A DNA stretch of 64,000 nt, taken from IMG/VR virus record IMGVR_UViG_3300033475_001387; one strand, 5' to 3'. Numbering within the stretch: position 1 is the first letter of the stretch; every line of letters begins with the position of its first letter. Positions 47,282 through 62,295 of the stretch are shown here, piece by piece. The DNA is from a virus. A program made the translations under genes and the position numbers. The notes beneath the pieces were generated by a model. It ran no database searches, had not been told where the DNA came from, and worked only from the letters and a program-made list of their open reading frames with translations.

Positions 47282-47498
47282 GCGCGTGCCTTTCGTCGTC
47301 GGGGCGTTGGGTGTGCTGGTCTGCGAGGTGCGATCTCGCTGACCATCTGCTCGGGCCGGCCCTTCGGGGCTGGCCCGCTGCGTTGTGGTGGCTGTCGCCG
47401 CAGGGTTCGCCAGGGCGCGGATCACCGCGTCGCGCTGACAAGCCCGACTGGCCGCGGGTACGGTGAGCAGTGAGCCGATTCGTGGAGGGACCTGCTCG

Positions 47499-47780
47499 AT
47501 GACTGCAGCGCACGCACACGCGTTCCATGGCGCCCGGCCGGCGCAACTGCCGAACACGGTCGAAGCGATCCGCAAGGCGCTGCCGCCCGCGCAGCGCGAG
47601 CAGTTCCTCACCGAGCTGGGGCCGGCGGTTGACCGCGGCGACTTGGCCGAGGTGGATGAGATCAAGGGCAAGTGGTGGGCGCATGCGATGTGGCACCACG
47701 ACCCGAGCATCCAGGCCGACTTTGAGGCCTCGGCCCGGGGCGAGCTTGAGTTCTTCGCTTCGCCGTTCGCCAACCGGTGA
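47499..47780 (+). CDS. DUF6247-like protein, putative antitoxin
   Basis: TVEAIRKALPPAQREQFL.EL...WW; GGAGG RBS. Confidence 0.65.
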   Translation: MTAAHAHAFHGARPAQLPNTVEAIRKALPPAQREQFLTELGPAVDRGDLAEVDEIKGKWWAHAMWHHDPSIQADFEASARGELEFFASPFANR

Positions 47781-48031
47781 GCCGCGCGGAGGACATTTGG
47801 ACGAAGCTCGCCCTCGAGGCGGCAGCGTCGCTGCCGCTCGCCGAGCGCGACCAGCTCGAGGCACTGGTCGGCGAGATCTGCCGGGATCCGTTCGGGCGCG
47901 GCATCGAGGACCCAGCGCTGCCTGACCCGCTGGGCCGTGCCCGGGTCGCCACGGCGAGGCGAGCGGTTGTGTTCTACGAGGTCGTGGACGAGGACATCGT
48001 CCGGATCACCCGCGTGTTCTGGCGCTCGTAG
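47777..48031 (+). CDS. RelE/ParE-like putative toxin
   Basis: 84 aa; RAVVFYEVVDEDIVRITRV C-terminal strands; GTGA coupling. Confidence 0.55.
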   Translation: MSRAEDIWTKLALEAAASLPLAERDQLEALVGEICRDPFGRGIEDPALPDPLGRARVATARRAVVFYEVVDEDIVRITRVFWRS

Positions 48032-48139
48032 CGGGACGCCCTGTCCCGTCAGCCAGTGCAGATGCGGCATGCCGCTTGACCTGCTTGTTAGCGGCTCCGG
48101 TTCGCCAACAGTACCGCCCTTCGCGTACAGTTGTAAGGC

Positions 48140-48646
48140 GTGGAGTGGACTAGTAGTTCGGTGCCGTACATCGCCCCGCCGAAGCCGGGCGAATCCGATG
48201 CGTGGACGAAGGCCGGAGGCAAGCAACGTCTCCTCGGCGTGAGCCTCGTCGAGGCCTCCAGCGAGGTGCGCACGGCCCTGCAACTGACCGAGGGCGCGCG
48301 CGTTGTCCGGCGTTCCCGTCTGATCATCGATGCCGACGGTCCGATGGAAGTCGCCACGTCGTACTGGCCTGCTGAGTGGGCCGAAGGCACACCGTTGGCT
48401 GAGCCAAAGCCCGCCAAGGGCGGGACGGTGCGCGTCCTTGCAGATATGGGCCGAGTCACCGCGACTTCGGTCGAGGACAACACAGCCGAGATCGCCGACG
48501 ACGTGAACTGCCCGGAAGCTCCGCGCGGCGCTCCGCTGCTCGTCATCAAGCGGACCATGCTCGATACGGAGAAGCAGCCCTTCGAGTACATCGTCATGCA
48601 CCGCTGGAACGGCGAGCCCCAGCGCTACGTCCTGAAGGCGGGGTAG
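48140..48646 (+). CDS. UTRA-domain-only protein
   Basis: VVRRSR...ATSYWPAEWAEGTPLA...LLVIKRT; no HTH. Confidence 0.7.
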   Translation: MEWTSSSVPYIAPPKPGESDAWTKAGGKQRLLGVSLVEASSEVRTALQLTEGARVVRRSRLIIDADGPMEVATSYWPAEWAEGTPLAEPKPAKGGTVRVLADMGRVTATSVEDNTAEIADDVNCPEAPRGAPLLVIKRTMLDTEKQPFEYIVMHRWNGEPQRYVLKAG

Positions 48647-48652
48647 ATACCT

Positions 48653-49375
48653 GTGCGCACTTGGGAAGACACCCGGCCGCCGTACCTGAAGTACGCGGCG
48701 CAGATCCGCAGGCAGATCATGTCCGGCGACTTCGATTCCGGGGAGTCCGATAACCAACTGCCGTCGATCAAGTACCTCATGGAGGTGCTCAACACGAAGT
48801 CGACGAGCGTCGTTCAGCGCGCCCTCGAGGTGCTCGAAGCTGAAGGACTGGTGGAGCGGCAGCACGGCAAGGGCAACTTTGCGCGCCGCTGGAGAGTCGT
48901 TGCGATCGACGCCGTCCGTGATCCGATGGCGGCGAACATGAAGTACAAGCTCCGAAGGGTCGAAGAGGTCGTGCCGGCCGCCGACGTGCGCGCTGAACTC
49001 GGTATCGGGCCGTCGGACACCGCGATCCTGCGTGAGCAGGTCGGCCGTCGTGACGGCGAGCCCGTCGAGCTCGTGAGCAACTACTACAGGCACGACGTGG
49101 CCGACGGCACTCGACTCGCGGAGTCGGGACCGCTCGGTGGCGGCTCGAAGGCCTACCTCGAATCGATGGGGTACGTCGAGGCCGAGATGATCGACCTGGA
49201 GACGTTCCGCGCGCCGGAAGAGCACGAAGTCGTCGCCCTGGAGCTGCCCGAGGGCGTGCCTATTGTCTCGGTCCTCAGGGTCATCCGTAACGAGCACGGT
49301 GTGCCAGTCGAGGTGTCCGTGATAGTCAAGGGCGGCCATCGGTACGCACTTCGGCATCGAACTTTGCTGCGCTGA
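48653..49375 (+). CDS. GntR-family regulator (HTH+UTRA), KorSA-like
   Basis: PPYLKYAAQIRRQI...LPS...VQRALEVLEAEGLVERQHGKGNF. Confidence 0.88.
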   Translation: MRTWEDTRPPYLKYAAQIRRQIMSGDFDSGESDNQLPSIKYLMEVLNTKSTSVVQRALEVLEAEGLVERQHGKGNFARRWRVVAIDAVRDPMAANMKYKLRRVEEVVPAADVRAELGIGPSDTAILREQVGRRDGEPVELVSNYYRHDVADGTRLAESGPLGGGSKAYLESMGYVEAEMIDLETFRAPEEHEVVALELPEGVPIVSVLRVIRNEHGVPVEVSVIVKGGHRYALRHRTLLR

Positions 49376-49397
49376 CAGCTGACTCACCCCTTCCCAT

Positions 49398-49424
49398 GCC
49401 CCCGGTTCCGACCGGGGGCTTTTT
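49398..49424 (+). terminator. Rho-independent terminator
   Basis: GCCCCCGGT-tccg-ACCGGGGGC-TTTTT. Confidence 0.85.
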
Positions 49425-49454
49425 CGTGCTCCGAGGTGTGTTCAACCTCGCCTC

Positions 49455-49482
49455 TTGCACTGTACCGAATCTGCGGTACTCT
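49455..49482 (+). promoter_or_regulatory. Promoter overlapped by palindromic operator
   Basis: TTGCAC, 16 bp spacer, TACTCT; GTACCG-N6-CGGTAC within it. Confidence 0.6.
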
Positions 49483-49487
49483 GGGCA

Positions 49488-49760
49488 ATGTCAGCACGAA
49501 ACGAAGCGCCCGAAGCGGACGCCAAGAACGCAAGGGAGGAAGCCATGGAGGCGGAGCGCGACGAGGTATCCGTCAGCGAAGCCGCGCGCCGCTTCGGCGT
49601 CAGCACCCGCACGGTTCTCAACATGATCTACCGCGGCGTCATCAAGGCCCGCCGTCCCACCGGCGCTAAGCGCGGGATGTACCGCATCCCCACGGCCGAG
49701 ATCGACCGGCACCTCGCTGAGACCGAAGTCAGCCGGTTTCCCGAGCCGGTAACCGCCTGA
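49488..49760 (+). CDS. Excisionase-like HTH protein
   Basis: SVSEAARRFGVSTRTVLNMIYRGVIKA...YRIP; alternative start 49545. Confidence 0.75.
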   Translation: MSARNEAPEADAKNAREEAMEAERDEVSVSEAARRFGVSTRTVLNMIYRGVIKARRPTGAKRGMYRIPTAEIDRHLAETEVSRFPEPVTA

Positions 49761-49806
49761 TCGTCTGTCCGACCGGTTCGAACTGGACGGTCGGACTTGA
49801 AGGGAA

Positions 49807-49847
49807 GCGGCCCCGCCCGCCGGACTCCAAACAGCGGGCGGGGCCGC
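49807..49847 (+). repeat. Intergenic hairpin with GACTCCAA loop, copy 1
   Basis: GCGGCCCCGCCCGC/GCGGGCGGGGCCGC; similar to 55169-55205. Confidence 0.6.
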
Positions 49848-49908
49848 AACCGAAGCACCAACGTCGAGGCCGTAGCCCGCCCGCCCGAATCCCAGAAGGA
49901 GGCCCCCG

Positions 49909-50073
49909 ATGACGATCAACTGGAGTGACCCGACCAAGAACACGCAGGCGGACCTGGACGCCTACCGCCAGTGGATCGACGACACCAACCTGTCCAAGAA
50001 CCACAGCGACCTGTACCGGCCGGTCGTGAAGCGGGACGGCGACAAGCCGGCCGCCACTCCGGCCGCCGCGTAA
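49909..50073 (+). CDS. Small hypothetical protein (54 aa, not in ORF track)
   Basis: AAGGAGG RBS; MTINWSDPTK...TAA. Confidence 0.6.
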   Translation: MTINWSDPTKNTQADLDAYRQWIDDTNLSKNHSDLYRPVVKRDGDKPAATPAAA

Positions 50074-50303
50074 CCCAACTAGCCCCTCGGGGCCGCGAAG
50101 GCGGCCCTCAAGCCCCTGACCTCGGAGGTCCCGGGACTGCTGCCGCACCAGCAGTTACCTGGGGAGCCGGTTCGACACCGGCCTGTGGGCACGCACGATC
50201 CAAGCCCTCGTCTGGGTCGGACCGCTGGCCTCCCCCACCAGCGCGCGAGTTCGAGACTCGCGGAGGGCACTCGGCACCACCCGTTCGAGCAAGGAGCCTC
50301 CAA

Positions 50304-50927
50304 GTGGAGTACGAGCGCCGCACGATCACCCAGACCATCAAGGTCCCGACGAACACCGGCCGCACCGTGGACGAGCACACGCAGGCGTACCTGAACCGGG
50401 CGATGGACGTCATGGACTCGATGGGCATCGGCATGTGGCCCGCGGCAGTGACCAACCCGGACGCGGCAGGAGCAACCGAGGACGAGAAGCCGGAGGCGAT
50501 CCGCCTGACCGCGGACGTGGTGCTGTTCGGCGAGTTCGACGGCGTCGCGCACGTCCTGCTGATCGAGCGCGGCGACGAGCCGTTCAAGGGCCTGTCGGCA
50601 TGGCCGGGCGGCCACGCCGACGAGGGCGAGGACGTCAAGGCCGCCGCCTACCGCGAGTTGGCCGAGGAGACCGGAATCCACATCGGCCCGCAGCTCAAGC
50701 TGGTCGGCGCCTACCAGACCCCGGGCCGGGACCCTCGCGGCCGCTACGTCACCTTCGCCTACACCGGCCGACTCGGCCACCGCGTCGAGCCGACCGCCGG
50801 GGACGACGCGGCGAAGGCCGAGTGGGTGCGCCTGGACCGGGTGATGTCGGGCGACATTCTGCTCGCGTTCGACCACGCGGAGATCCTGCGGGACGCGCTG
50901 AAGGTGCAGCCGCTGTACGGCGCGTGA
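50304..50927 (+). CDS. Nudix hydrolase (pSAM2 Pif-like position)
   Basis: Nudix box GGHADEGEDVKAAAYRELAEETG; DPRGRYVT; LAFDHAEI. Confidence 0.9.
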   Translation: MEYERRTITQTIKVPTNTGRTVDEHTQAYLNRAMDVMDSMGIGMWPAAVTNPDAAGATEDEKPEAIRLTADVVLFGEFDGVAHVLLIERGDEPFKGLSAWPGGHADEGEDVKAAAYRELAEETGIHIGPQLKLVGAYQTPGRDPRGRYVTFAYTGRLGHRVEPTAGDDAAKAEWVRLDRVMSGDILLAFDHAEILRDALKVQPLYGA

Positions 50928-51223
50928 TGTACGACCCGGCTTCGGCCGGCAAGCCCTCTAGCTCGCTGGTCGAGCGTCGCGCCCTCCCTCCTCGGGGCAC
51001 GAAGGACAGGTTCGACACCTGTGAGGGCACGCGGACCGGAACCTAGGCCGGTCGGCAGAAGGCGGATCGACGGATCCGCTGGGGCTGTGGTGTCGGGAGC
51101 ACGCCCTCCATGGAGGGAAGCGCCGGTTCAAGTCCGGCCAGCCCACGTCAAAAGGCCCAGCCGCTGGTGACGCAGCGGCCGGGCCAGGTCGAACCACTCC
51201 CGACCGGAAGAAGGCCCAACATC

Positions 51224-51463
51224 ATGCAGGGTACCGCCACCACCAGACCGCGCTCGGCCGAGTACGACTACCAGGCCATGGGCGAGATGCTCGCCGTGCT
51301 CGAGCGCGCCGCCACCGACTCGGCGTTCTTCGACGGGCTGCTGACCGCGCACCGCATCGCCGGCCGCCCCGACATCGCCGACTCCGCCGCGGCCGCGGTC
51401 GCCTCGATCCAGCGGCAGAACACCATCGTCCGGCCCGAGACCATCCTGGACGGCCCGCGATGA
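51224..51463 (+). CDS. Hypothetical protein
   Basis: ATGA coupling. Confidence 0.5.
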   Translation: MQGTATTRPRSAEYDYQAMGEMLAVLERAATDSAFFDGLLTAHRIAGRPDIADSAAAAVASIQRQNTIVRPETILDGPR

Positions 51464-51663
51464 GCCGCCGCCACGAAGAACTGCTCGGCTACGCCGAGAA
51501 GCGCGACCGTGACGCCGCCGCCGCGCGCGATGCCCGCGACAACGCGCAGTACGGCAGTTGGGAGCGCGGCGTCTACGCCCAGGCGTATGAGGACGCGAAG
51601 GCCGACGCGAAGAGCTTGCGCTTCCAGGTTGCGGACGAGAAGTGGAGGGAAAGCCGCCGATGA
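51460..51663 (+). CDS. Hypothetical protein
   Basis: ATGA coupling at both ends. Confidence 0.55.
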   Translation: MSRRHEELLGYAEKRDRDAAAARDARDNAQYGSWERGVYAQAYEDAKADAKSLRFQVADEKWRESRR

Positions 51664-52154
51664 CCTCCCCCTACGGCCCCTACTTCGCGCGCGTGGACGC
51701 CACGGCCGACCTCGGCCCGGGCGACCGGGCCGGGCGGCTCGCCGCCCTCACCTCCGCCCTCACCGGCGCTGGCGTCGCCCTCGGCGACTTCGACCAGGAC
51801 GTCGCCGCCTGGCTCGCCGGTTCGGACCCCGCCACCATCCAGGCCGTCATCGGCTGGATCACCCGCGCCGACAGCCGGCCCGCGCCCGTCTCCCCCGCCG
51901 GCACCTGGGCCATCTACCGGCCCACCCCCGCCGACAGGGAAGTGCTCGAGGCCACCGGCATCCACGGCACCTGGAGCGGATACGCCGAGCCCGACACTCT
52001 CGCCGGCAACGTCCTCGAGACCTACGCCGACGCCAACCCCGACTGGGTCGTGAACGTCTACGGCCCCGACGCGCTGCTCGTCGCCTGGGCCGAGTGGGAC
52101 GGCGGCAAGGTCGCCGTGCACCGCGCGGCCGCGAAGGTGGTGCAGCCGCGATGA
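51660..52154 (+). CDS. Hypothetical protein
   Basis: ATGA coupling. Confidence 0.55.
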   Translation: MTSPYGPYFARVDATADLGPGDRAGRLAALTSALTGAGVALGDFDQDVAAWLAGSDPATIQAVIGWITRADSRPAPVSPAGTWAIYRPTPADREVLEATGIHGTWSGYAEPDTLAGNVLETYADANPDWVVNVYGPDALLVAWAEWDGGKVAVHRAAAKVVQPR

Positions 52155-52540
52155 CCACTGCCACCGCCGCCCGCCGCCGCGCGCACCTGACGCCGGTCAC
52201 CGACGGCTACGTGCCCCCGGCGCCCGCCGACGACCTGACCGCCAAGGCCGACGCCGAGGGCGCTAACCGCCTCGAGCAGTTCGCAGAGGACCACGACGAC
52301 GCGTGCGTCGCGGCGCTCGTCCCCGAAGTCGTCGAGCAGCAGCGCGCCCTGATCGCCAAGGCCATGGCCGCGGTCGCCACCCCGGGCGCGGACCTCCACG
52401 CGATCCTCCTCGACTACGGCCACGCCATGTTCGTCGTCGGACACACCGAGCGCGCCCTGAGCGACCGTGAGCTCCCCGGCCCGTCCGAGACCGAAGTCGG
52501 CACGCTCGCCGCGATCCTCCGGCTGGAGGCCCGCCGATGA
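52151..52540 (+). CDS. Hypothetical protein
   Basis: ATGA coupling. Confidence 0.55.
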   Translation: MTTATAARRRAHLTPVTDGYVPPAPADDLTAKADAEGANRLEQFAEDHDDACVAALVPEVVEQQRALIAKAMAAVATPGADLHAILLDYGHAMFVVGHTERALSDRELPGPSETEVGTLAAILRLEARR

Positions 52541-52737
52541 GCGTCTCGATCGTCGCCACCGAGAACGGGCGCACCATCACCGCCCCCGACTCCCCCACCC
52601 TCGCCCGCTGGGCCTACGAAACCCACTGCGAGACCTGCGCCACCTGCCGCCGCGGCGAGACCTGGTGCAACCACGGCCGCGCCCTGCTCGCCGCCACCGC
52701 CCCCACCAACGACCTCCCGGGATTCCCGGCTATCTAA
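52537..52737 (+). CDS. Small zinc-binding protein
   Basis: HCETCATC...WCNHG. Confidence 0.55.
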   Translation: MSVSIVATENGRTITAPDSPTLARWAYETHCETCATCRRGETWCNHGRALLAATAPTNDLPGFPAI

Positions 52738-52747
52738 GGAGGCTGTC

Positions 52748-52951
52748 GTGCTCTACTTCTACTTCATGGCCGCGCTCGGGTGGGGCAACACCCCAATCGA
52801 ACTCGCCGGCACCGTTATCCCGGCGCCCGGCGCCACCCGGCACGACCTCTACCGCCAGCTCGCAGAGAAGGCTCGCGAGACCCTCGGCTGCGAGCGGAAG
52901 CAGCTCATCGTCACCCAGTTCAGCCTCGAGCCGAACGAACTGGGGACCTGA
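52748..52951 (+). CDS. Hypothetical protein
   Basis: AAGGAGG RBS; FSLEPNEL C-terminus. Confidence 0.6.
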   Translation: MLYFYFMAALGWGNTPIELAGTVIPAPGATRHDLYRQLAEKARETLGCERKQLIVTQFSLEPNELGT

Positions 52952-52952
52952 C

Positions 52953-53156
52953 ATGCCGTCCAACCACACCCCGCGCGGCCTGACCGTCGCGCTCACCACC
53001 GGCTCCACGCTCATCGTCGCGCTCGCCGTCGCCGAGCGCGCGCTCCCAGCCGAGAAGTGGCCGCTGCGCATCGCCGCCCTCGCTGTGCTCGTGATCCTCA
53101 CCGTCATCGCCGCCGCCCACAATGGCCGGCCCGAACAGCCCCGACCGGAGCAGTGA
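52953..53156 (+). CDS. Small two-TM membrane protein
   Basis: Two hydrophobic helices. Confidence 0.55.
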   Translation: MPSNHTPRGLTVALTTGSTLIVALAVAERALPAEKWPLRIAALAVLVILTVIAAAHNGRPEQPRPEQ

Positions 53157-53158
53157 CC

Positions 53159-53644
53159 ATGAGCCCCCGCCGCATCCTGATCAATGCCGCGATCGCCCTG
53201 GTCACTGCCGCGATCGCCGTCCACATCGTCTCCGGTCAGCCGTTCACCCCTACGTGGATCGCCCTCGCCCTGGCGTGGGCCACCGGAGTCATCTCCATGT
53301 GGACCATCGAGCGGCGGATCACGGCCGCGCGGCGGCAAGAGGACCGCCAGGCCCAGCGTCCGCTGATCGAGCAGTTCCCCGAGTTCCAGCCGACCACCAT
53401 CGTCGTAGTCGACGAGGTCGCGGAATTGATGGGCAAGCCGCACGCCGAAGCCACCCTCCGCGGCGAGCGGGTCGCGATGGAACCGTGCCCCGACGGCGAG
53501 CACTACTTCCCGTTCCCGGAGGAACTCGGCTGCGACCCCGAATCCTTTCCCGGCGGCCCGGACTCCCGCGGCAGCTGCGCCTGCGGCACCGCCTACTCAC
53601 CCTGGCTAGCCAACCTGATGGCCAACAAGGACACCGACCAGTGA
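53159..53644 (+). CDS. Membrane protein with C-terminal Cys motif
   Basis: Two TM helices, then CPDGEH...CAC. Confidence 0.55.
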   Translation: MSPRRILINAAIALVTAAIAVHIVSGQPFTPTWIALALAWATGVISMWTIERRITAARRQEDRQAQRPLIEQFPEFQPTTIVVVDEVAELMGKPHAEATLRGERVAMEPCPDGEHYFPFPEELGCDPESFPGGPDSRGSCACGTAYSPWLANLMANKDTDQ

Positions 53645-54045
53645 ACACCGCGACCATGCTCCTGCTCGCCGTGATGCTCCACTTCGTCGGGGACTACGTC
53701 ACCCAGTCCCACTGGATGGCCACCGAGAAGACCAACCGCCACCTGCCCGCGATCATCCACGGACTCGTCTACGCGCTGCCCTTCCTCATCCTCACCCGCT
53801 CGCTGGCCGCGCCCGCCGTCATCGCCGGCACGCACATCATCATCGACCGCTACCGGCTCGCCCGGCACCTGGTGTGGGCGAAGAACCTGCTCGCCCCGCG
53901 CCGCGCGCGCCGGTCGTGGGCGGAGTGCTCGGCCACCGGCTACCCACCGGAGACTCCGGCGTGGCTCGCCGTCGGCCTCATGATCGCCGCGGACAACACG
54001 GCACACATCCTGATCAACACTGCCGCGCTCGCGTGGCTGCACTGA
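53641..54045 (+). CDS. DUF3307 family membrane protein
   Basis: LHFVGDYVTQSHWMA.EK...HGLVY...THIIID. Confidence 0.8.
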   Translation: MNTATMLLLAVMLHFVGDYVTQSHWMATEKTNRHLPAIIHGLVYALPFLILTRSLAAPAVIAGTHIIIDRYRLARHLVWAKNLLAPRRARRSWAECSATGYPPETPAWLAVGLMIAADNTAHILINTAALAWLH

Positions 54046-54087
54046 CCGCAAGCAACCCCCCGACTGACCGCGAAGGAGACCACGCAC

Positions 54088-54342
54088 ATGGCCACCGCCC
54101 CCATCCCCGTCCACGAGGCCGACGACGAGATCGAGGACCTGTACATCCCCGACTTCAAACTCGTCAAGGAGCTCGCCCAGCGCGTCACCGACAACCACGG
54201 CAAGTCCGCGCGGCTGCCCCAGGTCGCCGGCATGCTCGACACCTGGGACGAGACCAAGAACCTCGACCTCGGCCAGCAGGAAATCCTCGCCGACGAGATC
54301 GTCGACGTTCTCGCCTCCCGCGACAACGGCCGACGGCGGTAA
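54088..54342 (+). CDS. Hypothetical protein
   Basis: AAGGAG RBS. Confidence 0.6.
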   Translation: MATAPIPVHEADDEIEDLYIPDFKLVKELAQRVTDNHGKSARLPQVAGMLDTWDETKNLDLGQQEILADEIVDVLASRDNGRRR

Positions 54343-54364
54343 CGAACCCTGACTCGTGGAGGCT

Positions 54365-54688
54365 CTAGCTGGCCGACCCACTATCCGACGCCCGACCTTC
54401 ACCGGTCGGGCGTTCGGCGTCTGTCGACTTGTGCGCAGATCTACCGCCGACATAACCGGTCGCGATCTGCTGGGCGCGGGCCCGGGTAATGCCGAGCTCG
54501 TCTCCGATGACCGTGTAGCTGCGGTCCTCGTGCATGGCGTTGACGGCTTCCCGCCGTGCCTCGCGCAGCCACGTCTGGAGCGCCGGCACGGCGTCGATCG
54601 CCTGCATGAGCGCCTTGGCGCGTGCAGTGGGATCGGGCTCGTCGGCCAGGCTACCGAGCACCTCGAACGGGGGCGGGGGCGCGTCCAT
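54365..54688 (-). CDS. Small HTH regulator
   Basis: RSYTVIGDELGITRARAQQIATG. Confidence 0.75.
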   Translation of the reverse strand: MDAPPPPFEVLGSLADEPDPTARAKALMQAIDAVPALQTWLREARREAVNAMHEDRSYTVIGDELGITRARAQQIATGYVGGRSAHKSTDAERPTGEGRASDSGSAS

Positions 54689-54696
54689 GGGGACAG

Positions 54697-54739
54697 TGTA
54701 TCGGGCCCCCTTGACGCTGACTAGGGGACCCTATACATT
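54697..54739 (+). promoter_or_regulatory. Promoter flanked by 15-bp inverted repeat
   Basis: TTGACG, 17 bp spacer, TACATT; TGTATCGGGCCCCCT / AGGGGACCCTATACA (13 of 15 complementary). Confidence 0.7.
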
Positions 54740-54778
54740 AAAGATGCCAGCACGGACCGCCGAACGAGGAGCCGAACA

Positions 54779-55069
54779 ATGCTCGCCCTAGCCTCGATCC
54801 TGATCCTCATCGCCATCGGCGCCCTGCTCGCGGCCGCCGGCACCGCAGGGTTCGTCCTCGTCTGGCAGCAGGCCTCATCGGCCGCCGACCTCGGTCACGC
54901 CCGTGTGACCGCTACGGCCGGCCGCTGGATGTCCGCGATCGGCCTGACCCTGTTCACCCTCCACCACACCGCCGCCGGCCCCGGTCTCGCTGCGCTCCTG
55001 TGCGTCGCAGCCCTCGCCGTCGCCACGCTCCTCACGAAATCCACCAGGCGCCTCGTTCACGCGCCCTGA
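54779..55069 (+). CDS. Small three-TM membrane protein (Spd-like)
   Basis: Three hydrophobic helices upstream of transfer genes. Confidence 0.6.
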   Translation: MLALASILILIAIGALLAAAGTAGFVLVWQQASSAADLGHARVTATAGRWMSAIGLTLFTLHHTAAGPGLAALLCVAALAVATLLTKSTRRLVHAP

Positions 55070-55168
55070 TATCGCTCGAATCGAAAAGCCCGAGGAACTT
55101 TGCCAGCTGAACCAGCCGGGAATTCCCCACCCCGCCCGGCGTAACGTAGAACCCGCACACATAAGGAC

Positions 55169-55205
55169 GGCCCCAAACCCGCTGACTCCAACAGCGGGCG
55201 GGGCC
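55169..55205 (+). repeat. Intergenic hairpin with GACTCCAA loop, copy 2
   Basis: GGCCCC..CCCGCTG-ACTCCAA-CAGCGGG.GGGGCC. Confidence 0.6.
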
Positions 55206-55239
55206 TAAACACCTCCGACGCTGAACTGGAGCGCCGCAA

Positions 55240-56211
55240 ATGCCTGCAGAGAAGGATAGCCGCACCGCGCCGCCGCCGAAACGCCGCGCGGCCCGACACG
55301 AGCCCACCCCACCCGTGCGCACCCCCAAGTCAGTGCGCATCGTCGCAGCCATCGGCATCCCGATCTCCCTCGCAGCCTCCGCCGCCGTCTCGTTCCAGGG
55401 CCTGTCCGGCCTGGGTGCGCTCATCGGCATCGCGCACCCGTGGCTGCTGCCGATCTCGATCGACGTCTACGCGATCACCGCCACCCTCATCGCGATGTTC
55501 CTGCCCGAGGGGCACCGGGCCCGGACCGCCGCCGAGTGGAACGCCCGGCTGGGCCTGGCCATGTCCATGGGCGGCAACGCCGCGGAGCGCGCGATCCACC
55601 TCGGCTCGTACACCGCCTCCGACGGCATCCTCACCTTCATCGGTGCGTGGCCGTCACTGATCGTCGAGCGACTGCTGCACCTGCAGGGCCGGCTCGCCGA
55701 CAGCGTGAAGACCACCGACACCGTCACCGACACCGAGGCGCCCGCGCCGACCGTCACCCGGCCGCGCAAGACCGACACTCCCGCGCGCGTCACCGTCACC
55801 GACACTCCCGCTCTGCCGCCGTCACCGACACCCGTCACCGACACTCTGGCCGACACTGCGCCCGTCACCGACACCGCGCCGTCGCCCGACACCGTCACCG
55901 CCCGCCCGACACTCGCGCCCGTCACCGTCGTCCGCGCGGCCGTCACCGACACCGACACCGACAGCGAACACGCCGAGCGCAGCCTCCCGTGGTGGGCCGA
56001 GAAGGCCGCACCCCTCTACCGGCAGTGGATGCGCGACCACAACGGCACCACCCCCGCCGCCCCCATGCTCGCCGATCTTCTGCGCAAGGCAGGCCACGAC
56101 GTCCCGGCCGGTGAGGTCCAGCGCCGCAAGATTCGGCGCGAGACCGAGACGTACATCAATGCGCACCCTGAGCCCGAGCCGGAGCCCGAGCAGGTCGGAG
56201 CCACGTCATGA
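55240..56211 (+). CDS. DUF2637/Spd-like membrane protein
   Basis: AAAVSFQGL..L...PWLLPISID...AMSMGGNA; TM N-terminus, Thr/Pro linker, C-terminal helical domain; coupled to FtsK-type gene. Confidence 0.75.
   Translation: MPAEKDSRTAPPPKRRAARHEPTPPVRTPKSVRIVAAIGIPISLAASAAVSFQGLSGLGALIGIAHPWLLPISIDVYAITATLIAMFLPEGHRARTAAEWNARLGLAMSMGGNAAERAIHLGSYTASDGILTFIGAWPSLIVERLLHLQGRLADSVKTTDTVTDTEAPAPTVTRPRKTDTPARVTVTDTPALPPSPTPVTDTLADTAPVTDTAPSPDTVTARPTLAPVTVVRAAVTDTDTDSEHAERSLPWWAEKAAPLYRQWMRDHNGTTPAAPMLADLLRKAGHDVPAGEVQRRKIRRETETYINAHPEPEPEPEQVGATS
55714..55964 (+). repeat. Co-oriented CCGACAC repeat array (candidate clt)
   Basis: 12 copies of CCGACAC, six within GTCACCGACAC, in more than one reading frame. 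Confidence 0.7.
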
Positions 56212-58517
56212 GCCTCATCAACCGCCACGCTTCAAGGGCCGCGGAGGCCGAGAACCTCGACGCAATCGGGGATCTCGACGCGGCCGGGGCCGAGCTCGTC
56301 GTGCGTGGCGTAGCGGAGCGCCGCATCGACCCGTACCGCACGACCAGCGGCAACACGATCATTCCGCGCCAGGGATACGCTCCAGGGCCCGCCATGGTGG
56401 CCCACGCCTACTCGCCGTTCTCCGGCGAGCTCCCGGCCCACGTGGCGGATCAGATGACCCCCGGCCGGGCCGACCGGACCGCGTGGGCGTTCTTCCAGTG
56501 GCTCCAGGACCGGCACCTGCTGCCCTCCGCCGCGGTCCTCGCCGGCCTCGTGTGCGGCTGGGGCACCGCCCTGACCGAACCCGACCACGTGCCCCTGGGC
56601 GCGGTCACCACGGCCTTCGGTCTGGTCGGCGCCCTCGGCTACGGCGGGCTGCACGTCATCCGGTCGATCAACTCCGACAGTGAGCCGATGCACCGCTCGC
56701 AGCACGCTGTCGGTCTGCTCGGGCTCGTCGCCACCGCGTTCGGTGTCGTCTGCATCACCGGACCGTCGTTCTACGGTGTCGGTGTCACCCTGCTCGAACT
56801 CGGTGTCGCCTACTGGGCGTACTTCGAGCACCGACACTCCAGGCTGTCGGATCAGCGGGAGTTCACTGTCGCCTACCACGCCGCCGTCACTCAGCAGATC
56901 GTGGCAGTGTCGGGCGACAGTGGCGCCGCGATGCAGCCGCTGCCGCTCGACGGCCAGGTCCTCTCCCACGAGGAGACGATGGTCCGCAACGCGTTCGACG
57001 GCATCGGGATCGGCCTGTCCGACATCTACGGCTTCTCGCGGATCAACGAGTCGTCGTTCGCCGTCACCGTCGTGCTGGCGCCGGCGAAGGGCATCAGCCC
57101 CGACGCGATCATCCGGCGCCGCGAGGAGATCAAGAGCGCGCTGCAGGCGAACCAGGTCCTGATCACGAAGACGCGCCGCGGCCACGAGGTGCGGATCACC
57201 GCGCGCTACGGGGAGATCGACGAGCTCGCCGAGACGATAGAGGCACCGGGCATCACCGTCCGCTCGATCAAGGAGCCGATCCCGCTCGGGCCGGCCGCTA
57301 CCGGTGAGATGTCGCTGCTGCACCTGCTCGGCAACCACACCGTCATCGGCGGCACGACGAACAACGGAAAGTCCGGTCTGGTCAACAACATCGTCACGCA
57401 GGTCGTGCCGATGAAAGACGCGCGCCTGGTTCTCCTGGACTGCAAGCCCGGCCAATTGGAGCTCGGGATTTACGAGGACGTCGCGTACGCGTCGGCGGAT
57501 TCATTCGAGCGCGCAGCGTTGATTCTGAAGGCTCTGGTCGCGGTGATGAATATCCGCGGCGCGAAGCTCAAGAAGCTGCGCCTGGAGTCCGGCAAGCCCG
57601 CGCGACAGTGGGACACCGAGGACGGGCCTGCCCTCGTCGTGGTGATCGACGAGCTCGCGGAGCTGTTCCGCGACCTCAAGCAGACCGAACTCAAGAAGAT
57701 CAAGAATGATGTGCTGCGCGACGCGATCGAGCACATGAACGCGAACTTCGTGCGTCTGTGCCAGGTCGCCCGCGCCTACGCCATCTCCCTGGTCATTGCG
57801 ACACAGAAGCCGGACGCGCTCGCGGCCGGCGGTGTGAAGTCCGGTGTCGACCAGGCGCAGAACCGGCTGTGCGTCGCGACCACGAGCTCGCGCCTGACGA
57901 ACATCGTGCTGCGTGAGGGCGCACACGGCGAGGGCTTCAAGGCGACCGAGCTCGACGTGGCCGGCAAATTCCTGATGATCACACTGAAGGAGGCGCTGAA
58001 GGTCGAGCGCAAGTCCTTCTGGTGGACCGACGAGCGCATCGCCGAGGTCGTCGAGCAGAACGGCGAGGACCTCGCCCCACTGGCGGACGATGAGGATGAT
58101 GCGTTCAAGGCGATCCTCGCCGGCCGCAAGCCCGACTTCGAGATCCCCTCCCCGTTCGACGACCCCGACGGCACGGAGGACGAGTGGGACGAGGAGGAGT
58201 TCGACGACACGCCCGCCGCCGACCCGCGCCACGGACTGCGGCTCGTGCCGGAGTACCCGGACGGCAGCGTGATCGAGACCAAATACCTGGCGTGCTGGGA
58301 GATGCTCGCCACCTTCGGCGACCGCGGCGCGACCGTCGCAGACCTCTCCGTCGCCGCCAAGCGCGCCGGGCACGAGAACAGCTCGCTCGCGTGGGTGCGC
58401 AACCTGTGCGCGGAGTGGCGCGCCGCCGGTTACGTCGTGGTCGAGCAGCAGGGCCGGGACTTCCGGTACTGGCGCGACGACGCCGCCGTGCGCCAGCAGT
58501 TGCGGATGGAGGCGTAG
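56208..58517 (+). CDS. FtsK/SpoIIIE-family conjugative DNA translocase (TraB/TraSA-like)
   Basis: N-terminal TM helices, Walker A GGTTNNGKS, LLDCKPG, Walker B VVIDELAE, ATQKP, C-terminal winged helix. Confidence 0.9.
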   Translation: MSLINRHASRAAEAENLDAIGDLDAAGAELVVRGVAERRIDPYRTTSGNTIIPRQGYAPGPAMVAHAYSPFSGELPAHVADQMTPGRADRTAWAFFQWLQDRHLLPSAAVLAGLVCGWGTALTEPDHVPLGAVTTAFGLVGALGYGGLHVIRSINSDSEPMHRSQHAVGLLGLVATAFGVVCITGPSFYGVGVTLLELGVAYWAYFEHRHSRLSDQREFTVAYHAAVTQQIVAVSGDSGAAMQPLPLDGQVLSHEETMVRNAFDGIGIGLSDIYGFSRINESSFAVTVVLAPAKGISPDAIIRRREEIKSALQANQVLITKTRRGHEVRITARYGEIDELAETIEAPGITVRSIKEPIPLGPAATGEMSLLHLLGNHTVIGGTTNNGKSGLVNNIVTQVVPMKDARLVLLDCKPGQLELGIYEDVAYASADSFERAALILKALVAVMNIRGAKLKKLRLESGKPARQWDTEDGPALVVVIDELAELFRDLKQTELKKIKNDVLRDAIEHMNANFVRLCQVARAYAISLVIATQKPDALAAGGVKSGVDQAQNRLCVATTSSRLTNIVLREGAHGEGFKATELDVAGKFLMITLKEALKVERKSFWWTDERIAEVVEQNGEDLAPLADDEDDAFKAILAGRKPDFEIPSPFDDPDGTEDEWDEEEFDDTPAADPRHGLRLVPEYPDGSVIETKYLACWEMLATFGDRGATVADLSVAAKRAGHENSSLAWVRNLCAEWRAAGYVVVEQQGRDFRYWRDDAAVRQQLRMEA

Positions 58518-58520
58518 CCG

Positions 58521-59984
58521 ATGGCCGGCAAGCCCCGGCGCCGCAAGCCGCCGGCAACGGCCGTGGACCGGGCGGTGCGCTCAGCGAAGCGCACCGCCCG
58601 GTCCATGACCCCGGACCGAGTGGTCGCCCGGTTCCTGAGCGGCGGGCGACACCAGACGATCGGCGCGATCGCAAGAGCGCCGTTCAAGGAGCACACGGTC
58701 GCCACCCCGAAGTCGGGCAAGCGCCGCTACCAGCAGATCGTGGCGAAGGAGCGCAAGGCCCAGGCGAAGAAGGCCGCTGAGACGAAGCGGGCGCAGGCCG
58801 CGGCACAGAGAGCTGTCCGCGCCCAGACGCGGGGCCAGAAGCCGCGCGCGCCGAGGCCGCAGCGGCAGCCGATCGCCGTGAACCCGCGCACCGGCAAGGC
58901 GATCACCTGGGGCCAGGCGCAGGCCGGTGTGCGGGCCGCGCAACGCGAGGTCGACCGGATCGAGCGGGAACTCGCCGGCGCCCCGGCGCCGCGCCCGCGC
59001 GCACCTCGGCCGAAGCCGGAGCAGGCGCCCGCCTCGAAGTCGCCGCTGCAGGCCGCCATCGCCGAGGTCAAGGCCAAGCAGAAGCCGCCGGACCGGACAC
59101 CGGCCAAGCCGAAGCCCCGGAAGAAAGCCGCCGCCAAGCCGCGCCGCCCGCTGGCGAAGAAGAACAGCGGCATCGAGACCGTCGCCGACCTGATCCCGGG
59201 CCGCGCGATCCTCGCCCCCACCACGCCGCAGCGCGCCACCCCCGGCGCGCCGACGGCGCCGTATGCCATCCCGCTGAGCCCGCGCTCTCGTGCCGCCCGC
59301 AAGGGCGGCAAGGGCGTGTACGGCGCCGTCCTGCGACGCACCTGCGAATGCGGCGGCACTGGCCGCATCCCCACCTACGACCCGAAGACCGCGGCACTCA
59401 CCGGCTCCGCCTCCTGCCCGGTGCACGGACGCCGCGCCCGCGGCACCCGCCGCCACTTCACCCGCACCGCCGCCCGCGACGCCGGCCTGCCCGGGCTCGC
59501 CGGGTACCTCGAGAAGAAGCGCCGCAACGGATCGAAGCGGCTCGACAAGCAGCAGGAACGCGTACAGCACCGCGCCGCCACCGACCTACGGCGCATGGGC
59601 CCGACCGTGCCGTGCCCGCAGACCGCGCACTGCGACAACGGAATCTGGGACCGCAAGGACAAGGACCGCGAGCGCGAGGCGTTCATCGCCGCGCACGTCG
59701 CCGCCGCCCGCGCCGAGGACCAGCCCGTCCCGTCGAACCGGAGACTGCGGAAGCTGGCCGCACAGGCACTGCCGTATGAGCACTGCGACACCTGCGGCGG
59801 CCTCGGCCGCGTGCCGACCTCGACCGAGGTCACCCAGGACGGTCAGATCCCGGTGTGGGAGTGGCGTACCGGCGCGGGCCTGCGCTACGGACACCAGCCC
59901 ACGGCGCGCGAGCGCTCGACCGGCCGACGGCAGACCGAACACGCCGAGCGCGTCGAGCGCCGCCGCAAACTCCCCCGCCTGTAG
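58521..59984 (+). CDS. Basic protein with DnaJ-type zinc-finger motifs
   Basis: CECGGTGR and CDTCGGLGR; Arg/Lys/Ala-rich. Confidence 0.65.
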   Translation: MAGKPRRRKPPATAVDRAVRSAKRTARSMTPDRVVARFLSGGRHQTIGAIARAPFKEHTVATPKSGKRRYQQIVAKERKAQAKKAAETKRAQAAAQRAVRAQTRGQKPRAPRPQRQPIAVNPRTGKAITWGQAQAGVRAAQREVDRIERELAGAPAPRPRAPRPKPEQAPASKSPLQAAIAEVKAKQKPPDRTPAKPKPRKKAAAKPRRPLAKKNSGIETVADLIPGRAILAPTTPQRATPGAPTAPYAIPLSPRSRAARKGGKGVYGAVLRRTCECGGTGRIPTYDPKTAALTGSASCPVHGRRARGTRRHFTRTAARDAGLPGLAGYLEKKRRNGSKRLDKQQERVQHRAATDLRRMGPTVPCPQTAHCDNGIWDRKDKDREREAFIAAHVAAARAEDQPVPSNRRLRKLAAQALPYEHCDTCGGLGRVPTSTEVTQDGQIPVWEWRTGAGLRYGHQPTARERSTGRRQTEHAERVERRRKLPRL

Positions 59985-60146: not shown

Positions 60147-60608
60147 ATGGACCACTCCAGTCCGGGATCCAAGCCCCGGGTTTTGATCACCACGTACGGC
60201 AGCCTCCACGGCGCGCCGCCGAGGTCCGCGCCGTTCGCCGTGCTCGCACTCGACCTGCGCCACTCGCTGCGCAACCCGTTCGACGACCCGGCGATGCGCG
60301 AGTTGACCGGCCTCGACCCCGTCGTGCGCGACCACGTCCTGAACACCGACGGTGCCGACGCGATCCTCGCCGACACCACCGGGCGCCTGATGGCGCTGCT
60401 CGACTGGTCCGACCGGAAGAACGCGCAGACCGACCGCGACGACCAGGTCACCTTGCACGTGTTCTGCAAGGGCGGCCGGCACCGTTCGGTCGCCGTAGCC
60501 GAGGAGATCGCCGCGACGCTCCGCTCCGCCGAAATCAGCGTCGGCGTCGAGCACCGCGACGTCACCAAGCCCGTGATCCAGCCGACTTCCGCGACCCAGG
60601 AGGCGTGA
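60147..60608 (+). CDS. RapZ C-terminal-domain-like protein
   Basis: ITTYG..HG...DLR..LRNPF.DP.MRELTG.D..V...V...C.GGRHRSVA. Confidence 0.8.
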   Translation: MDHSSPGSKPRVLITTYGSLHGAPPRSAPFAVLALDLRHSLRNPFDDPAMRELTGLDPVVRDHVLNTDGADAILADTTGRLMALLDWSDRKNAQTDRDDQVTLHVFCKGGRHRSVAVAEEIAATLRSAEISVGVEHRDVTKPVIQPTSATQEA

Positions 60609-61849: not shown

Positions 61850-62097
61850 ACGGGCCGACGCACTACCTGACGGTCGCCGAGGCCGCGCTCTTCACCGGCC
61901 GCTCCGAGCGCACGATCCGCCGATGGATGAACAACCAACTCCTGGCGATCTACCGGCGCGGAGACGGGATCCTCGTGCTCGACGTCAAGGAGCTCGCGCG
62001 CATCGAACGCCAGCAGCGCAACGCCAACCCGACGGCCCGGAGCAAGAAGCGCGCCGCGACGTTTGCACTGGTCCGCCCTGTTGACCTATCCTCCTGA
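61846..62097 (+). CDS. HTH DNA-binding protein
   Basis: LTVAEAALFTGRSERTIRRW. Confidence 0.8.
   Translation: MNGPTHYLTVAEAALFTGRSERTIRRWMNNQLLAIYRRGDGILVLDVKELARIERQQRNANPTARSKKRAATFALVRPVDLSS
62063..62092 (+). promoter_or_regulatory. Candidate late promoter
   Basis: TTGCAC, 18 bp spacer, TATCCT upstream of tRNA cluster. Confidence 0.45.
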
Positions 62098-62219: not shown

Positions 62220-62293
62220 AGCAGGGTAGCGCAGCCGGTTAGCGCGTCGGTTTCATACGTCGAAGGTCGCGGGTTCGAGTCCCGTCCCTGCCC
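62220..62293 (+). tRNA. tRNA-Met(CAT) with A1:C72 mismatch
   Basis: D arm GCGC, loop TT-CAT-AC, T arm GCGGG-TTCGAGT-CCCGT; no encoded CCA. Confidence 0.8.
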
Positions 62294-62295
62294 CC

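What the first reader, a model, noticed from the sequence alone, without database searches (positions are those of the whole stretch)
48140..59984. pSAM2/AICE-like conjugation module nested between phage replication and late-control genes
Seen in order: GntR (KorSA-like), Xis-like HTH, Nudix (Pif-like), small membrane genes, DUF2637/Spd-like gene, TraB-type FtsK ATPase, DnaJ-type Zn-finger protein; then phage-type late regulator, HTH and tRNAs. Established: Streptomyces plasmids and AICEs move dsDNA with a single TraB plus Spd proteins; plasmid-phages such as pZL12 are precedent. No RepSA/RepAM or integrase is in the window. Inference: a phage that can also spread hypha-to-hypha by conjugation, or an AICE remnant captured by a prophage.
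Basis: partly seen in the sequence, partly recalled or inferred. Interest (0 to 1): 0.8.

Follow-up and report, generated by a model that had tools for sequence, protein, structure and literature searches.

The report
Plasmid-type DNA pump module in actinophage
A large uncultured phage of Streptomyces-like bacteria carries, as an old and conserved part of its genome, the kind of DNA-pumping gene set that Streptomyces plasmids use to push double-stranded DNA between hyphae, so it may spread without virus particles, an idea with published precedent (pZL12) and still untested here.

Summary
One label is wrong: the 'late regulator' at 60147-60608 is a RapZ C-terminal-domain protein.

The block is not an inserted AICE. 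I found no integrase, Rep or att-like repeats. The core (GntR, DUF2637-like, TraB-like, Zn-finger protein, often a RapZ_C-like gene) recurs in the same order in at least nine related contigs. Three of these are complete IMG/VR phage genomes of 60.5, 74.6 and 116 kb with terminase or portal and head genes. The window is collinear with 12-91 kb of the 116-kb phage, so it is probably the non-structural arm of such a phage. Its own structural genes are not in the assembled DNA.

The translocase has the pSVH1 TraB architecture: membrane helices, FtsK motor, C-terminal winged helix. It is only distantly related by sequence, and the nearest non-phage relative I sampled sits in an AICE-like element.

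Spread of phage DNA through hyphae is the best reading but is inferred. Precedents are pZL12/pFP4, SpdB2 homologues in phiC31/VWB and FtsK-like genes in many actinophages. This scan has already noted such modules on other DNA (94 notes, at least 85 genomes). I rate it a new member of a known kind.

The parts
47499..48031 (+). Two small genes (DUF6247 protein, then an 84-aa ORF) that open the + strand block, diverging from the - strand GIY-YIG gene
   Evidence: Gene calls and Pfam listed (offset 46207); sequence
48161..48646 (+). UTRA-only (effector-domain) paralogue of the GntR regulator
   Evidence: Pfam UTRA 7.9e-14; conserved in L026
48653..49375 (+). GntR/HutC-type regulator (wHTH plus UTRA), a Kor/TraR-like candidate repressor
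   Evidence: Pfam GntR 3.7e-10, UTRA 7.9e-12; homologues near TraB in G001-G003, L025, L026, L042; 29-31% identity between the G001-G003 GntR proteins and the GntR beside the Tra gene of an AICE-like element
49398..49425 (+). Terminator-like GC hairpin plus T run after the GntR gene
49545..49760 (+). HTH_17 (excisionase/MerR-like) small DNA-binding protein
   Evidence: Pfam 7.8e-11; conserved position in L025, L026, L042
50304..50927 (+). Nudix hydrolase (Pif-like by domain only)
   Evidence: Pfam NUDIX 1.8e-22; 73-75% nt identity to Nudix genes on Streptomyces plasmids; present in L026 and L037 but not in G001-G003
51167..54342 (+). Run of 10 small ORFs, mostly without known family; 52953-53156, 53153-53644 and 53641-54045 (DUF3307, phrog_6676) are predicted membrane proteins
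54365..54688 (-). Small antisense gene with an HTH-like segment, conserved in L025
54779..55069 (+). 96-aa membrane protein (2-3 TM), first gene of the TraB sub-operon; a promoter-like site lies at 54711-54739
   Evidence: homologue in G002
55240..56211 (+). DUF2637-like polytopic membrane protein with a low-complexity linker and a conserved C-terminal domain; overlaps the TraB start by 4 nt
55715..55958 (+). Cluster of 12 co-oriented CCGACAC repeats inside the linker of the DUF2637-like gene (candidate clt; ambiguous)
56208..58517 (+). TraB-type FtsK/SpoIIIE dsDNA translocase, 769 aa
   Evidence: Pfam 4.7e-14; Walker A GGTTNNGKS and Walker B VVVIDE; AF2 model with membrane helices, motor and C-terminal wHTH; Foldseek top hits FtsK motor and TcpA
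58521..59984 (+). Basic (110 K+R), Cys-rich Zn-finger-like protein, invariably downstream of TraB
60147..60608 (+). RapZ C-terminal-domain protein (not a late regulator)
   Evidence: Pfam PF22740 9.3e-24; NCBIfam RapZ 7e-19; same neighbour in L038 and L042
61082..62097 (+). 255-aa Cys-rich protein (phrog_1467/1568 'DNA binding protein') and an HTH_17 protein
   Evidence: homologous pair in L025
62220..62573 (+). tRNA-Met, Ala, Tyr, Thr cluster

Best explanation
The block is an integral, vertically conserved part of the non-structural arm of a large tailed actinophage; it was not inserted as a separate element. It is a plasmid-type dsDNA-translocation module.

Its core is a small membrane protein, a DUF2637-like polytopic membrane protein, a TraB-type FtsK translocase and a basic Zn-finger protein, translationally coupled or nearly so. 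A GntR/UTRA (Kor/TraR-like) regulator lies upstream. Variable accessories are HTH_17, Nudix and RapZ_C-like genes.

Most likely mechanism (inferred): after infection or derepression of the GntR-controlled genes, TraB hexamers anchored in the hyphal membrane beside the DUF2637 protein bind phage dsDNA through the C-terminal winged helix. The binding site may be the repeat array in the DUF2637 gene. The hexamers then pump the replicating phage genome across septal cross-walls or hyphal contacts, so infection (or a carrier state) spreads without virions.

Shown: gene content, domain architecture, conservation and the phage context of relatives.
Inferred: that the window itself is phage, that the proteins act together, and the direction and substrate of pumping.

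I put about 0.85 on 'phage-borne conserved TraB-type module' and about 0.4-0.45 on the DNA-spreading function.
For: Domains.

TraB architecture equals pSVH1 TraB. pSVH1 TraB is 772 aa, and PMC4447253 assigns clt recognition to its C terminus and uses a TraB 699-772 fragment. Our protein is 769 aa, with helices 105-227, an FtsK-like motor at 254-640 and a wHTH at 691-768. Foldseek matches the FtsK motor at E 8e-13 and the conjugation coupling protein TcpA.

The core is conserved in order in G001, G002, G003, L004, L025, L026, L037, L038 and L042.

The relatives are phages. IMG/VR records G001 and G002 with direct terminal repeats and G001-G003 at CheckV 100%. G002 has terminase, portal, scaffold, major head and tail genes; G001 has portal and terminase; G003 has portal, protease and major head. 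L042 has a portal 9 kb downstream.

Nineteen window genes are collinear with G002 12-91 kb. Several block genes fall in PHROG families.

DUF2637 genes lie beside conjugative transfer ATPases on Streptomyces plasmids in 2 of 2 cases sampled. The one non-phage relative sampled is in an AICE-like element with an integrase.

Literature: the pZL12 plasmid-phage needs a major tra gene plus two adjacent genes for transfer (PMC3583192). [quoted passage not shown]
Against: No structural phage gene lies in the window or in its 65.9-kb contig, as far as it is held, so phage identity of this DNA rests on relatives.

Sequence similarity to curated plasmid TraB is weak (NF041214: 35 bits against a cut-off of 800), and the pSLE1/pZL12-type translocase is not detectably homologous.

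The candidate clt may simply be 'DT' peptide repeats. It is absent from L025, whose TraB recognition helix is identical.

G001 and G003 have no integrase or ParB. A plasmid-like donor state is therefore not evident, and a lytic phage may have little time to conjugate.

No experiment links any phage FtsK-like gene to DNA spreading.
Confidence: 0.45

Rival explanations
1. Segregation role. The TraB-like pump works like FtsK/SpoIIIE/SffA for the phage's own genome. It clears or moves phage (or carrier-state/pseudolysogen) DNA across closing vegetative or sporulation septa, so that compartments and spores inherit it. It does not transfer DNA to new hyphae.
For: The motor is structurally FtsK-like. 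The same window also encodes a stand-alone FtsK gamma-domain protein (17652-18131) and a WhiB, which are developmental-type host functions. G001 and G003 lack partition genes, so another inheritance device would be useful.
Against: The conserved partners (DUF2637 membrane protein, GntR regulator, KilB family in L004) are those of plasmid transfer and spread loci, not of chromosome segregation. The nearest non-phage relative sampled sits in an AICE-like element.
Confidence: 0.2
2. Exclusion or host-takeover role. The module acts against other DNA. It would give surface or entry exclusion and immunity against conjugative plasmids, AICEs or superinfecting phages (a Pif-like role for the Nudix protein), or it would export or damage host DNA.
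For: PHROGs files phage FtsK-like proteins under 'moron, auxiliary metabolic gene and host takeover'. Nudix Pif of pSAM2 is a conjugal-immunity factor (PMC3218068). The surrounding window is rich in defence-like accessory genes.
Against: Nudix is not conserved with TraB in G001-G003. Exclusion does not need a full-length motor with a sequence-reading wHTH and a translationally coupled three-gene core.
Confidence: 0.15
3. The window is not phage at all. It is part of a large conjugative plasmid or ICE that shares many genes with phages.
For: There are no virion genes in 64 kb. The window holds many plasmid-like genes (Ku, DnaB x2, methylases, Nudix with plasmid relatives). DUF2637 is common on Streptomyces plasmids.
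Against: Nineteen genes are collinear with a complete 116-kb phage whose virion genes lie just beyond the aligned part. Every related contig long enough shows packaging or lysis genes. No ParAB, Rep or relaxase was found. There is no near-identical DNA in PLSDB.
Confidence: 0.08
4. An AICE remnant captured by a (pro)phage and carried as a decaying passenger.
For: The GntR, HTH_17, Nudix and FtsK set recalls pSAM2-type AICEs (PMC3218068). An AICE-like element has the nearest non-phage homologue.
Against: All ORFs are intact with high GC3. The core is conserved at 37-80% identity in at least nine phage-type contigs. There is no integrase, Rep or att repeat. The translocase is the long plasmid type.
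Confidence: 0.04

Closest known systems
TraB / Spd transfer-and-spread locus of Streptomyces plasmid pSVH1 (also pSG5, pIJ101, pSN22): GntR-type TraR/KorA, Spd membrane proteins, TraB, clt
   Same: One FtsK-like translocase of the same size and domain order: about 770 aa, membrane part, motor, C-terminal winged helix (PMC4447253). A GntR regulator lies nearby. There is a four-TM membrane partner and translational coupling, and a short-repeat array lies next to traB.
   Different: Sequence similarity is limited to the motor (NF041214: 35 bits). The membrane partner is DUF2637-like, not demonstrably SpdB2. The conserved basic Zn-finger and RapZ_C-like genes have no described plasmid counterpart. 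There is no plasmid Rep. The replicon is (by relatives) a 60-116-kb tailed phage.
Streptomyces plasmid-phages pZL12/phiZL12 (Zhong et al. 2010, J Bacteriol 192:3747), its relative pSLE1 (NZ_LN831788) and pFP4 (Chen et al. 2012, Plasmid 68:170)
   Same: [quoted passage not shown]
   Different: The pSLE1 ATPase is annotated as T4CP family and shows no tblastn similarity to the window's TraB. pSLE1 has ParA/ParB and integrases, whereas none were found here or in G001/G003. Only four window proteins have pSLE1 homologues.
Streptomyces phage Gilgamesh gp10 'FtsK-like DNA translocase' (MN234216) and the ~130-kb circular Streptomyces 'plasmids' related to it (e.g. NZ_CP108441)
   Same: An isolated phage with a full-length homologue (28% identity over 87% of the query, E 5e-46), so such pumps are carried by real virions. 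The related 131-kb plasmid encodes a terminase 78% identical to Gilgamesh's.
   Different: This is a different clade (about 28% identity). No GntR, DUF2637 or Zn-finger genes are adjacent; in Gilgamesh the DUF2637 gene is elsewhere.
FtsK-like and SpdB2-like genes annotated in many actinophages (phiC31, VWB; BE/BK-cluster phages; Geonosis, Mandalore, Naboo)
   Same: Phage-borne FtsK-family ATPases of unknown role. Thoma et al. 2015 suggested that phage Spd homologues spread phage DNA.
   Different: Those are mostly motor-only matches (24-25% identity over 44% of the query). Here the full plasmid-type architecture and a conserved multi-gene core are present.
pSAM2-type AICEs (KorSA, Pra, RepSA, Xis, Int, TraSA, Spd, Pif)
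   Same: GntR regulator, HTH_17, Nudix and an FtsK-family Tra protein occur together. An AICE-like element holds the nearest non-phage homologue sampled.
   Different: There is no integrase, Rep or att. The translocase is much longer, with membrane and wHTH domains. The block is conserved inside phage genomes.

Membership tests
Streptomyces plasmid TraB (pSVH1-type conjugative dsDNA translocase) | FtsK/SpoIIIE motor with Walker A and B | tested here: met
   PF01580 4.7e-14; GGTTNNGKS and VVVIDE; Foldseek FtsK motor E 8e-13
Streptomyces plasmid TraB (pSVH1-type conjugative dsDNA translocase) | N-terminal membrane association and overall size of about 770 aa | tested here: met
   Hydrophobic segments at 104-122 and 167-185; four long helices at 105-227 in the model; pSVH1 TraB is 772 aa (PMC4447253)
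Streptomyces plasmid TraB (pSVH1-type conjugative dsDNA translocase) | C-terminal winged helix that reads clt | tested here: met
   Predicted H-H-H-beta-beta-H fold at 691-768, pLDDT about 72-84. This is a fold prediction only; DNA binding was not tested.
Streptomyces plasmid TraB (pSVH1-type conjugative dsDNA translocase) | cis-acting clt made of several 8-bp TRS repeats near traB | tested here: inconclusive
   12 CCGACAC in 244 nt, the densest 7-mer cluster of the window. Two copies are out of frame and use the rare ACA codon. The motif is conserved in L037 and L038 but absent in L025, which has the same recognition helix. The repeats coincide with 'DT' peptide repeats.
Streptomyces plasmid TraB (pSVH1-type conjugative dsDNA translocase) | Reaches NCBIfam NF041214 plasmid_TraB equivalog cut-off | tested here: not met
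   35.1 bits against a cut-off of 800, motor region only
Streptomyces plasmid TraB (pSVH1-type conjugative dsDNA translocase) | GntR-type Kor/TraR regulator in the locus | tested here: met
   Regulation itself was not tested.
Streptomyces plasmid TraB (pSVH1-type conjugative dsDNA translocase) | Mediates conjugal transfer and pock formation | not testable with these tools
   Needs mating or spread assays
AICE (pSAM2 / pMEA type) | Tyrosine or serine integrase and att sites bounding the element | tested here: not met
   No PF00589 or PF07508 hit in any large ORF. No long direct repeats bound the block.
AICE (pSAM2 / pMEA type) | RepSA, RepAM or Prim-pol replication gene | tested here: not met
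   None found by Pfam in the scanned ORFs. Replication genes present are phage- or chromosome-type DnaB and DnaC-like. RepSA has no Pfam model, so a RepSA-type protein was not specifically searched for; the 348-aa HTH_36 protein at 45648-46694 is unassigned.
AICE (pSAM2 / pMEA type) | FtsK-family Tra protein, often with Nudix (Pif-like) | tested here: met
   The immunity function of the Nudix protein was not tested.
Streptomyces plasmid-phage (pZL12 / pSLE1 / pFP4) | Virion genes on the same replicon | tested here: inconclusive
   None in the window. They are present in relatives G001-G003 and L042. The rest of this contig is not available.
Streptomyces plasmid-phage (pZL12 / pSLE1 / pFP4) | Plasmid maintenance genes (ParA/ParB, RepA) | tested here: not met
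   None in the window's scanned ORFs. There is no ParB_N in G001-G003. pSLE1 has ParA/ParB.
Streptomyces plasmid-phage (pZL12 / pSLE1 / pFP4) | Homologous transfer ATPase | tested here: not met
   No tblastn hit of the window TraB on pSLE1 at E 1e-4
DUF2637 (PF10935) | Reaches the Pfam gathering score | tested here: inconclusive
   The window protein scores 16.9 bits against 22.8. The homologous upstream genes carry PF10935 hits: L004 (unmarked), L025 and L037 (weak), and G002 at 19.9 bits, below the cut-off. The Atlas gives 0.90 with 195 shared features and a structure TM of 0.53.

The most novel reading that the evidence does not exclude
A clade of large (60-116 kb) tailed phages of mycelial actinomycetes, some with no integrase or partition genes, uses a GntR-gated DUF2637-TraB-Zn-finger machine to pump replicating phage dsDNA through hyphal cross-walls or between touching hyphae. 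This would be a virion-independent cell-to-cell route of infection in a multicellular bacterium. The repeat array inside the DUF2637 gene would be the docking site, and the basic Zn-finger protein would be a new DNA-handling subunit absent from plasmids.
Probability: 0.3. Interest if true: 0.8.

Novelty: new member of a known kind. Interest (0 to 1): 0.45.

Why it matters
Mycelial bacteria are divided into many compartments, and a virion infects only one of them. A phage that can push its genome sideways as naked dsDNA would change how infection, plaque growth, defence and gene flow are understood in Streptomyces. It would also blur the line between phage and conjugative plasmid.

The idea already exists (pZL12/pFP4; a remark in Thoma et al. 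2015), and FtsK-like genes are routinely annotated in actinophages without a role. This locus adds a well-defined, conserved four-gene core in complete phage genomes, including two without a recognised integrase or ParB. That gives concrete genes, a candidate DNA site and testable predictions. It does not add a new principle.

Tried and rejected
- Whole genome of the window: none is held. The JGI copy of the contig could not be read because the sample file is too large.
- Near-identity DNA searches of the block and of 1-24 kb in the phage and plasmid collections gave only short hits on DUF3307, Nudix, WhiB and TROVE.
- The search for related loci with the window TraB found nothing in viral contigs and only an irrelevant weak hit in genome contigs. 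The search succeeded only with the 56% homologue.
- The genome search on assembly loci L004-L006: those records are not held.
- Walking 10 kb downstream in the 72% relative (L027) gave small ORFs, a 740-aa protein and a cut 522-aa protein, with no recognisable virion gene yet. I did not pursue it further.
- tblastn of the window's DUF2637-like protein against plasmids found no match. The L004 homologue did match.
- Complex prediction of TraB 96-769 with the DUF2637-like protein returned no verdict (score 0.00, controls not run). This is no evidence either way.
- ESM Atlas on the Zn-finger domain gave nothing above chance.
- Sequencing runs: none was listed for 55240-59984 and no RNA holder was listed, so virion or RNA evidence could not be sought.
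- The pZL12 paper (PMC2897331) is not held. Statements about it come from citing papers and from my own knowledge.
- Rejected: the 'Xis' role for HTH_17, since there is no integrase partner.
- Rejected: the 'late regulator' label for 60147-60608.
- Rejected: my first call of a 459-aa ORF at 46691-48070. It is better split into a 244-aa GIY-YIG gene on the - strand and two small + strand genes.


Full report
**Approach.** The window is about 70% G+C, so I called genes by third-position GC (98 genes). I scanned about 70 of them against Pfam, NCBIfam and PHROGs.

**The observation.** On the + strand from about 47.5 kb to the window end there is one almost uninterrupted gene array. In order it contains:
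- a DUF6247 gene and an 84-aa ORF (47499-48031; gene calls);
- a UTRA-only gene (48161-48646);
- a GntR+UTRA regulator (48653-49375), followed by a strong terminator-like hairpin (49398-49419);
- an HTH_17 protein (49545-49760);
- a Nudix hydrolase (50304-50927);
- ten small ORFs (51167-54342), three with predicted TM segments, including a DUF3307 protein that matches phrog_6676 at 4e-53;
- a small antisense gene (54365-54688);
- a promoter-like site (54711-54739);
- a 96-aa membrane protein (54779-55069);
- a 323-aa DUF2637-like membrane protein (55240-56211), overlapping by ATGA the next gene;
- a 769-aa FtsK/SpoIIIE protein (56208-58517);
- three bases later, a 487-aa very basic, Cys-rich protein (58521-59984);
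- a RapZ C-terminal-domain protein (60147-60608);
- a 255-aa phrog_1467/1568 protein and a second HTH_17 protein (61082-62097);
- four tRNAs (62220-62573).

**The translocase.** The protein has Walker A (GGTTNNGKS) and Walker B (VVVIDE) motifs. An AlphaFold2 model built on 15 homologues (mean pLDDT 65.6) shows:
- a disordered N terminus;
- four long hydrophobic helices (105-227);
- an alpha/beta domain plus RecA-like motor (254-640);
- an acidic disordered linker;
- a C-terminal helix-helix-helix-hairpin-helix winged helix (691-768).

Foldseek places the motor with FtsK (2iut, 6t8o; E about 1e-12) and with the conjugation coupling protein TcpA of pCW3.

According to Thoma et al. 2015 (PMC4447253), pSVH1 TraB is 772 aa, its C terminus recognises clt (the paper uses a TraB 699-772 fragment), and it works with four-TM SpdB2 and a GntR-type TraR. 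The architecture therefore matches.

By sequence the protein is distant. The NCBIfam plasmid_TraB model gives 35 bits against a cut-off of 800. I therefore say it works like, and is built like, TraB, but I do not file it as an equivalog.

**Relatives and context.** The 5.8-billion-protein search found 25 homologues, all metagenomic. Contexts:
- A 56% homologue lies on a 74.6-kb contig assembled independently by JGI and ENA. It carries GntR+UTRA, a 279-aa upstream partner, the TraB-like gene and, 9 kb downstream, Phage_gp49_66 and a Terminase_6N protein.
- That contig and two others are in IMG/VR: G001 (74,596 nt) and G002 (115,995 nt), both with direct terminal repeats, and G003 (60,543 nt). 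All three are rated 100% complete by CheckV.
- PHROGs identifies terminase, portal, scaffold, major head, Dit, minor tail and tail-spike proteins in G002. It finds a portal in G001, and portal, maturation protease and major head protein in G003.
- A more distant member (L042, 73-kb contig) shows GntR+UTRA, HTH_17, small ORFs, a 351-aa partner, TraB, a PapZ_C gene and then a Phage_portal gene.
- A 99-kb contig (L004) has DUF2637, TraB, a KilB-family protein and a GH25 endolysin.
- Closer relatives (65-80% identity: L025, L026, L037, L038) repeat the same order, with Nudix and PapZ_C genes coming and going.

Nineteen window proteins have homologues in G002, in the same order from G002 12 kb to 91 kb. 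They include DnaB, WhiB, exonuclease, PNKP-type phosphatase, RlaP, GntR, TraB and the Zn-finger protein. G002's virion genes occupy 93.6-116 kb.

The simplest reading is that the window is the non-structural two thirds of a G002-like phage. This is an inference, because the assembled contig (65,893 nt) ends before any virion gene.

**Not an inserted AICE.** No integrase or recognised Rep family was found. No long direct repeats bound the block. GC and GC3 do not change across it. The core is conserved at 37-80% identity throughout the clade.

A profile search of 1.84 billion representatives found about 25 full-length clusters. Below them is a second tier of 550-680-aa proteins that match the motor and the C terminus. 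The one second-tier member I looked up sits between SSB and a tyrosine integrase, next to a chromosomal G6PD gene, which is an AICE-like setting. The phage clade is thus related to AICE/plasmid Tra proteins, but it has long been resident in phages.

**The partners.**
- DUF2637-like protein: N-terminal TM domain, a fast-evolving low-complexity linker and a conserved C-terminal domain.
- DUF2637 genes occur on 349 plasmid records (328 from Streptomyces). In both plasmids I opened, they lie next to a conjugative transfer ATPase and other transfer genes.
- Downstream protein: a conserved N-terminal motif, a lysine/arginine/proline-rich linker, and a domain with invariant C275, C277, C299, H302 and C365, C371, C422, C425. 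No family or structure match was found.
- A complex prediction for TraB with the DUF2637-like protein gave no verdict.

**Candidate clt.** CCGACAC occurs 12 times on one strand in 55715-55958. This is the densest 7-mer cluster in the window. Ten copies encode x-Asp-Thr. Two are in another frame and use ACA, which makes up 6% of Thr codons in the window.

Six of seven relatives scanned also have a short-repeat cluster in the same linker, each with a different word and in mixed frames. The CGACAC word is kept in the 80% and 65% relatives. It is missing in the 72% relative, whose recognition helix is identical. I regard the clt reading as open.

**Comparison with the known.**
- Its relative pSLE1 has a very similar local layout: GIY-YIG, GntR, small ORFs, a 774-aa transfer ATPase, terminase. 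That ATPase is not detectably homologous to ours, and pSLE1 has ParAB and integrases.
- Phage Gilgamesh carries a 28%-identical full-length homologue, and a 131-kb circular Streptomyces 'plasmid' is a Gilgamesh relative.
- FtsK-like genes are noted without function in many actinophages.
- This scan has 94 earlier notes of such modules in at least 85 genomes. These are AI notes, not independent evidence.

**Verdict.** The 'phage that may also conjugate' reading is the best available but is untested, and the 'AICE remnant' reading is rejected. This is a new clade-level member of an already recognised kind of phage-plasmid hybrid function.

Noticed in passing
window 17652-18131 (+): A stand-alone 159-aa protein carries an FtsK gamma domain (PF09397, 3.6e-15) in the same element as the TraB-like pump. 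It may read KOPS-like words or interact with host XerCD or FtsK.
   Followed up: no
window 50304-50927 and 60147-60608; L040 7051-7876: Nudix and RapZ_C-like genes are directly adjacent on a Streptomyces virginiae linear plasmid, and both recur (apart) near TraB in the window and its relatives (L037, L038, L042). They may form a functional pair unrelated to Pif-type immunity.
   Followed up: partly
L002 / NZ_CP108441.1 (131,209 nt, circular) and four other 129.7-132.6-kb Streptomyces 'plasmids': NZ_CP108441.1 encodes a terminase 78% identical to that of Streptomyces phage Gilgamesh, plus a homologous FtsK-like gene. By size and the shared FtsK-like gene, the others probably belong to the same group: Gilgamesh-like phages living as circular plasmids, typed 'non-mobilizable' in PLSDB.
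   Followed up: partly
window 47499-48031 (+): A DUF6247 gene is followed, with a 4-nt overlap, by an 84-aa ORF at the divergent junction with the - strand GIY-YIG gene. The arrangement looks like a toxin-antitoxin pair.
   Followed up: no
window 48161-48646 (+): A UTRA-only protein (effector-binding domain without the DNA-binding head) lies immediately before the full GntR/UTRA regulator. The pair is conserved in L026. It may be an anti-repressor or decoy.
   Followed up: no
window 9553-10923 (+) and 38317-39579 (-): There are two DnaB-family helicase genes in one element. The second lies at the edge of the lower-GC accessory region, and both match the single DnaB of G002.
   Followed up: no
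G003 52660-52810; G002 21733-22000: Tight arrays of 8-mers (TGAGCCGT x6; GAAGCAAA x4) lie away from TraB in the related phage genomes. They are possible replication-origin iterons.
   Followed up: no
window 54365-54688 (-): This is the only antisense gene inside the + strand block. It encodes a 107-aa protein with an HTH-like segment and is conserved (42% identity) at the same place in L025, just upstream of the promoter-like site of the TraB sub-operon. It is a candidate local regulator.
   Followed up: no
window 22119-22195: The 'tRNA-Asn' called by ARAGORN lies inside the Y-RNA array described by another note of this scan (e1-5355725). It is probably not a true tRNA and should not be used as an att candidate.
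   Followed up: no
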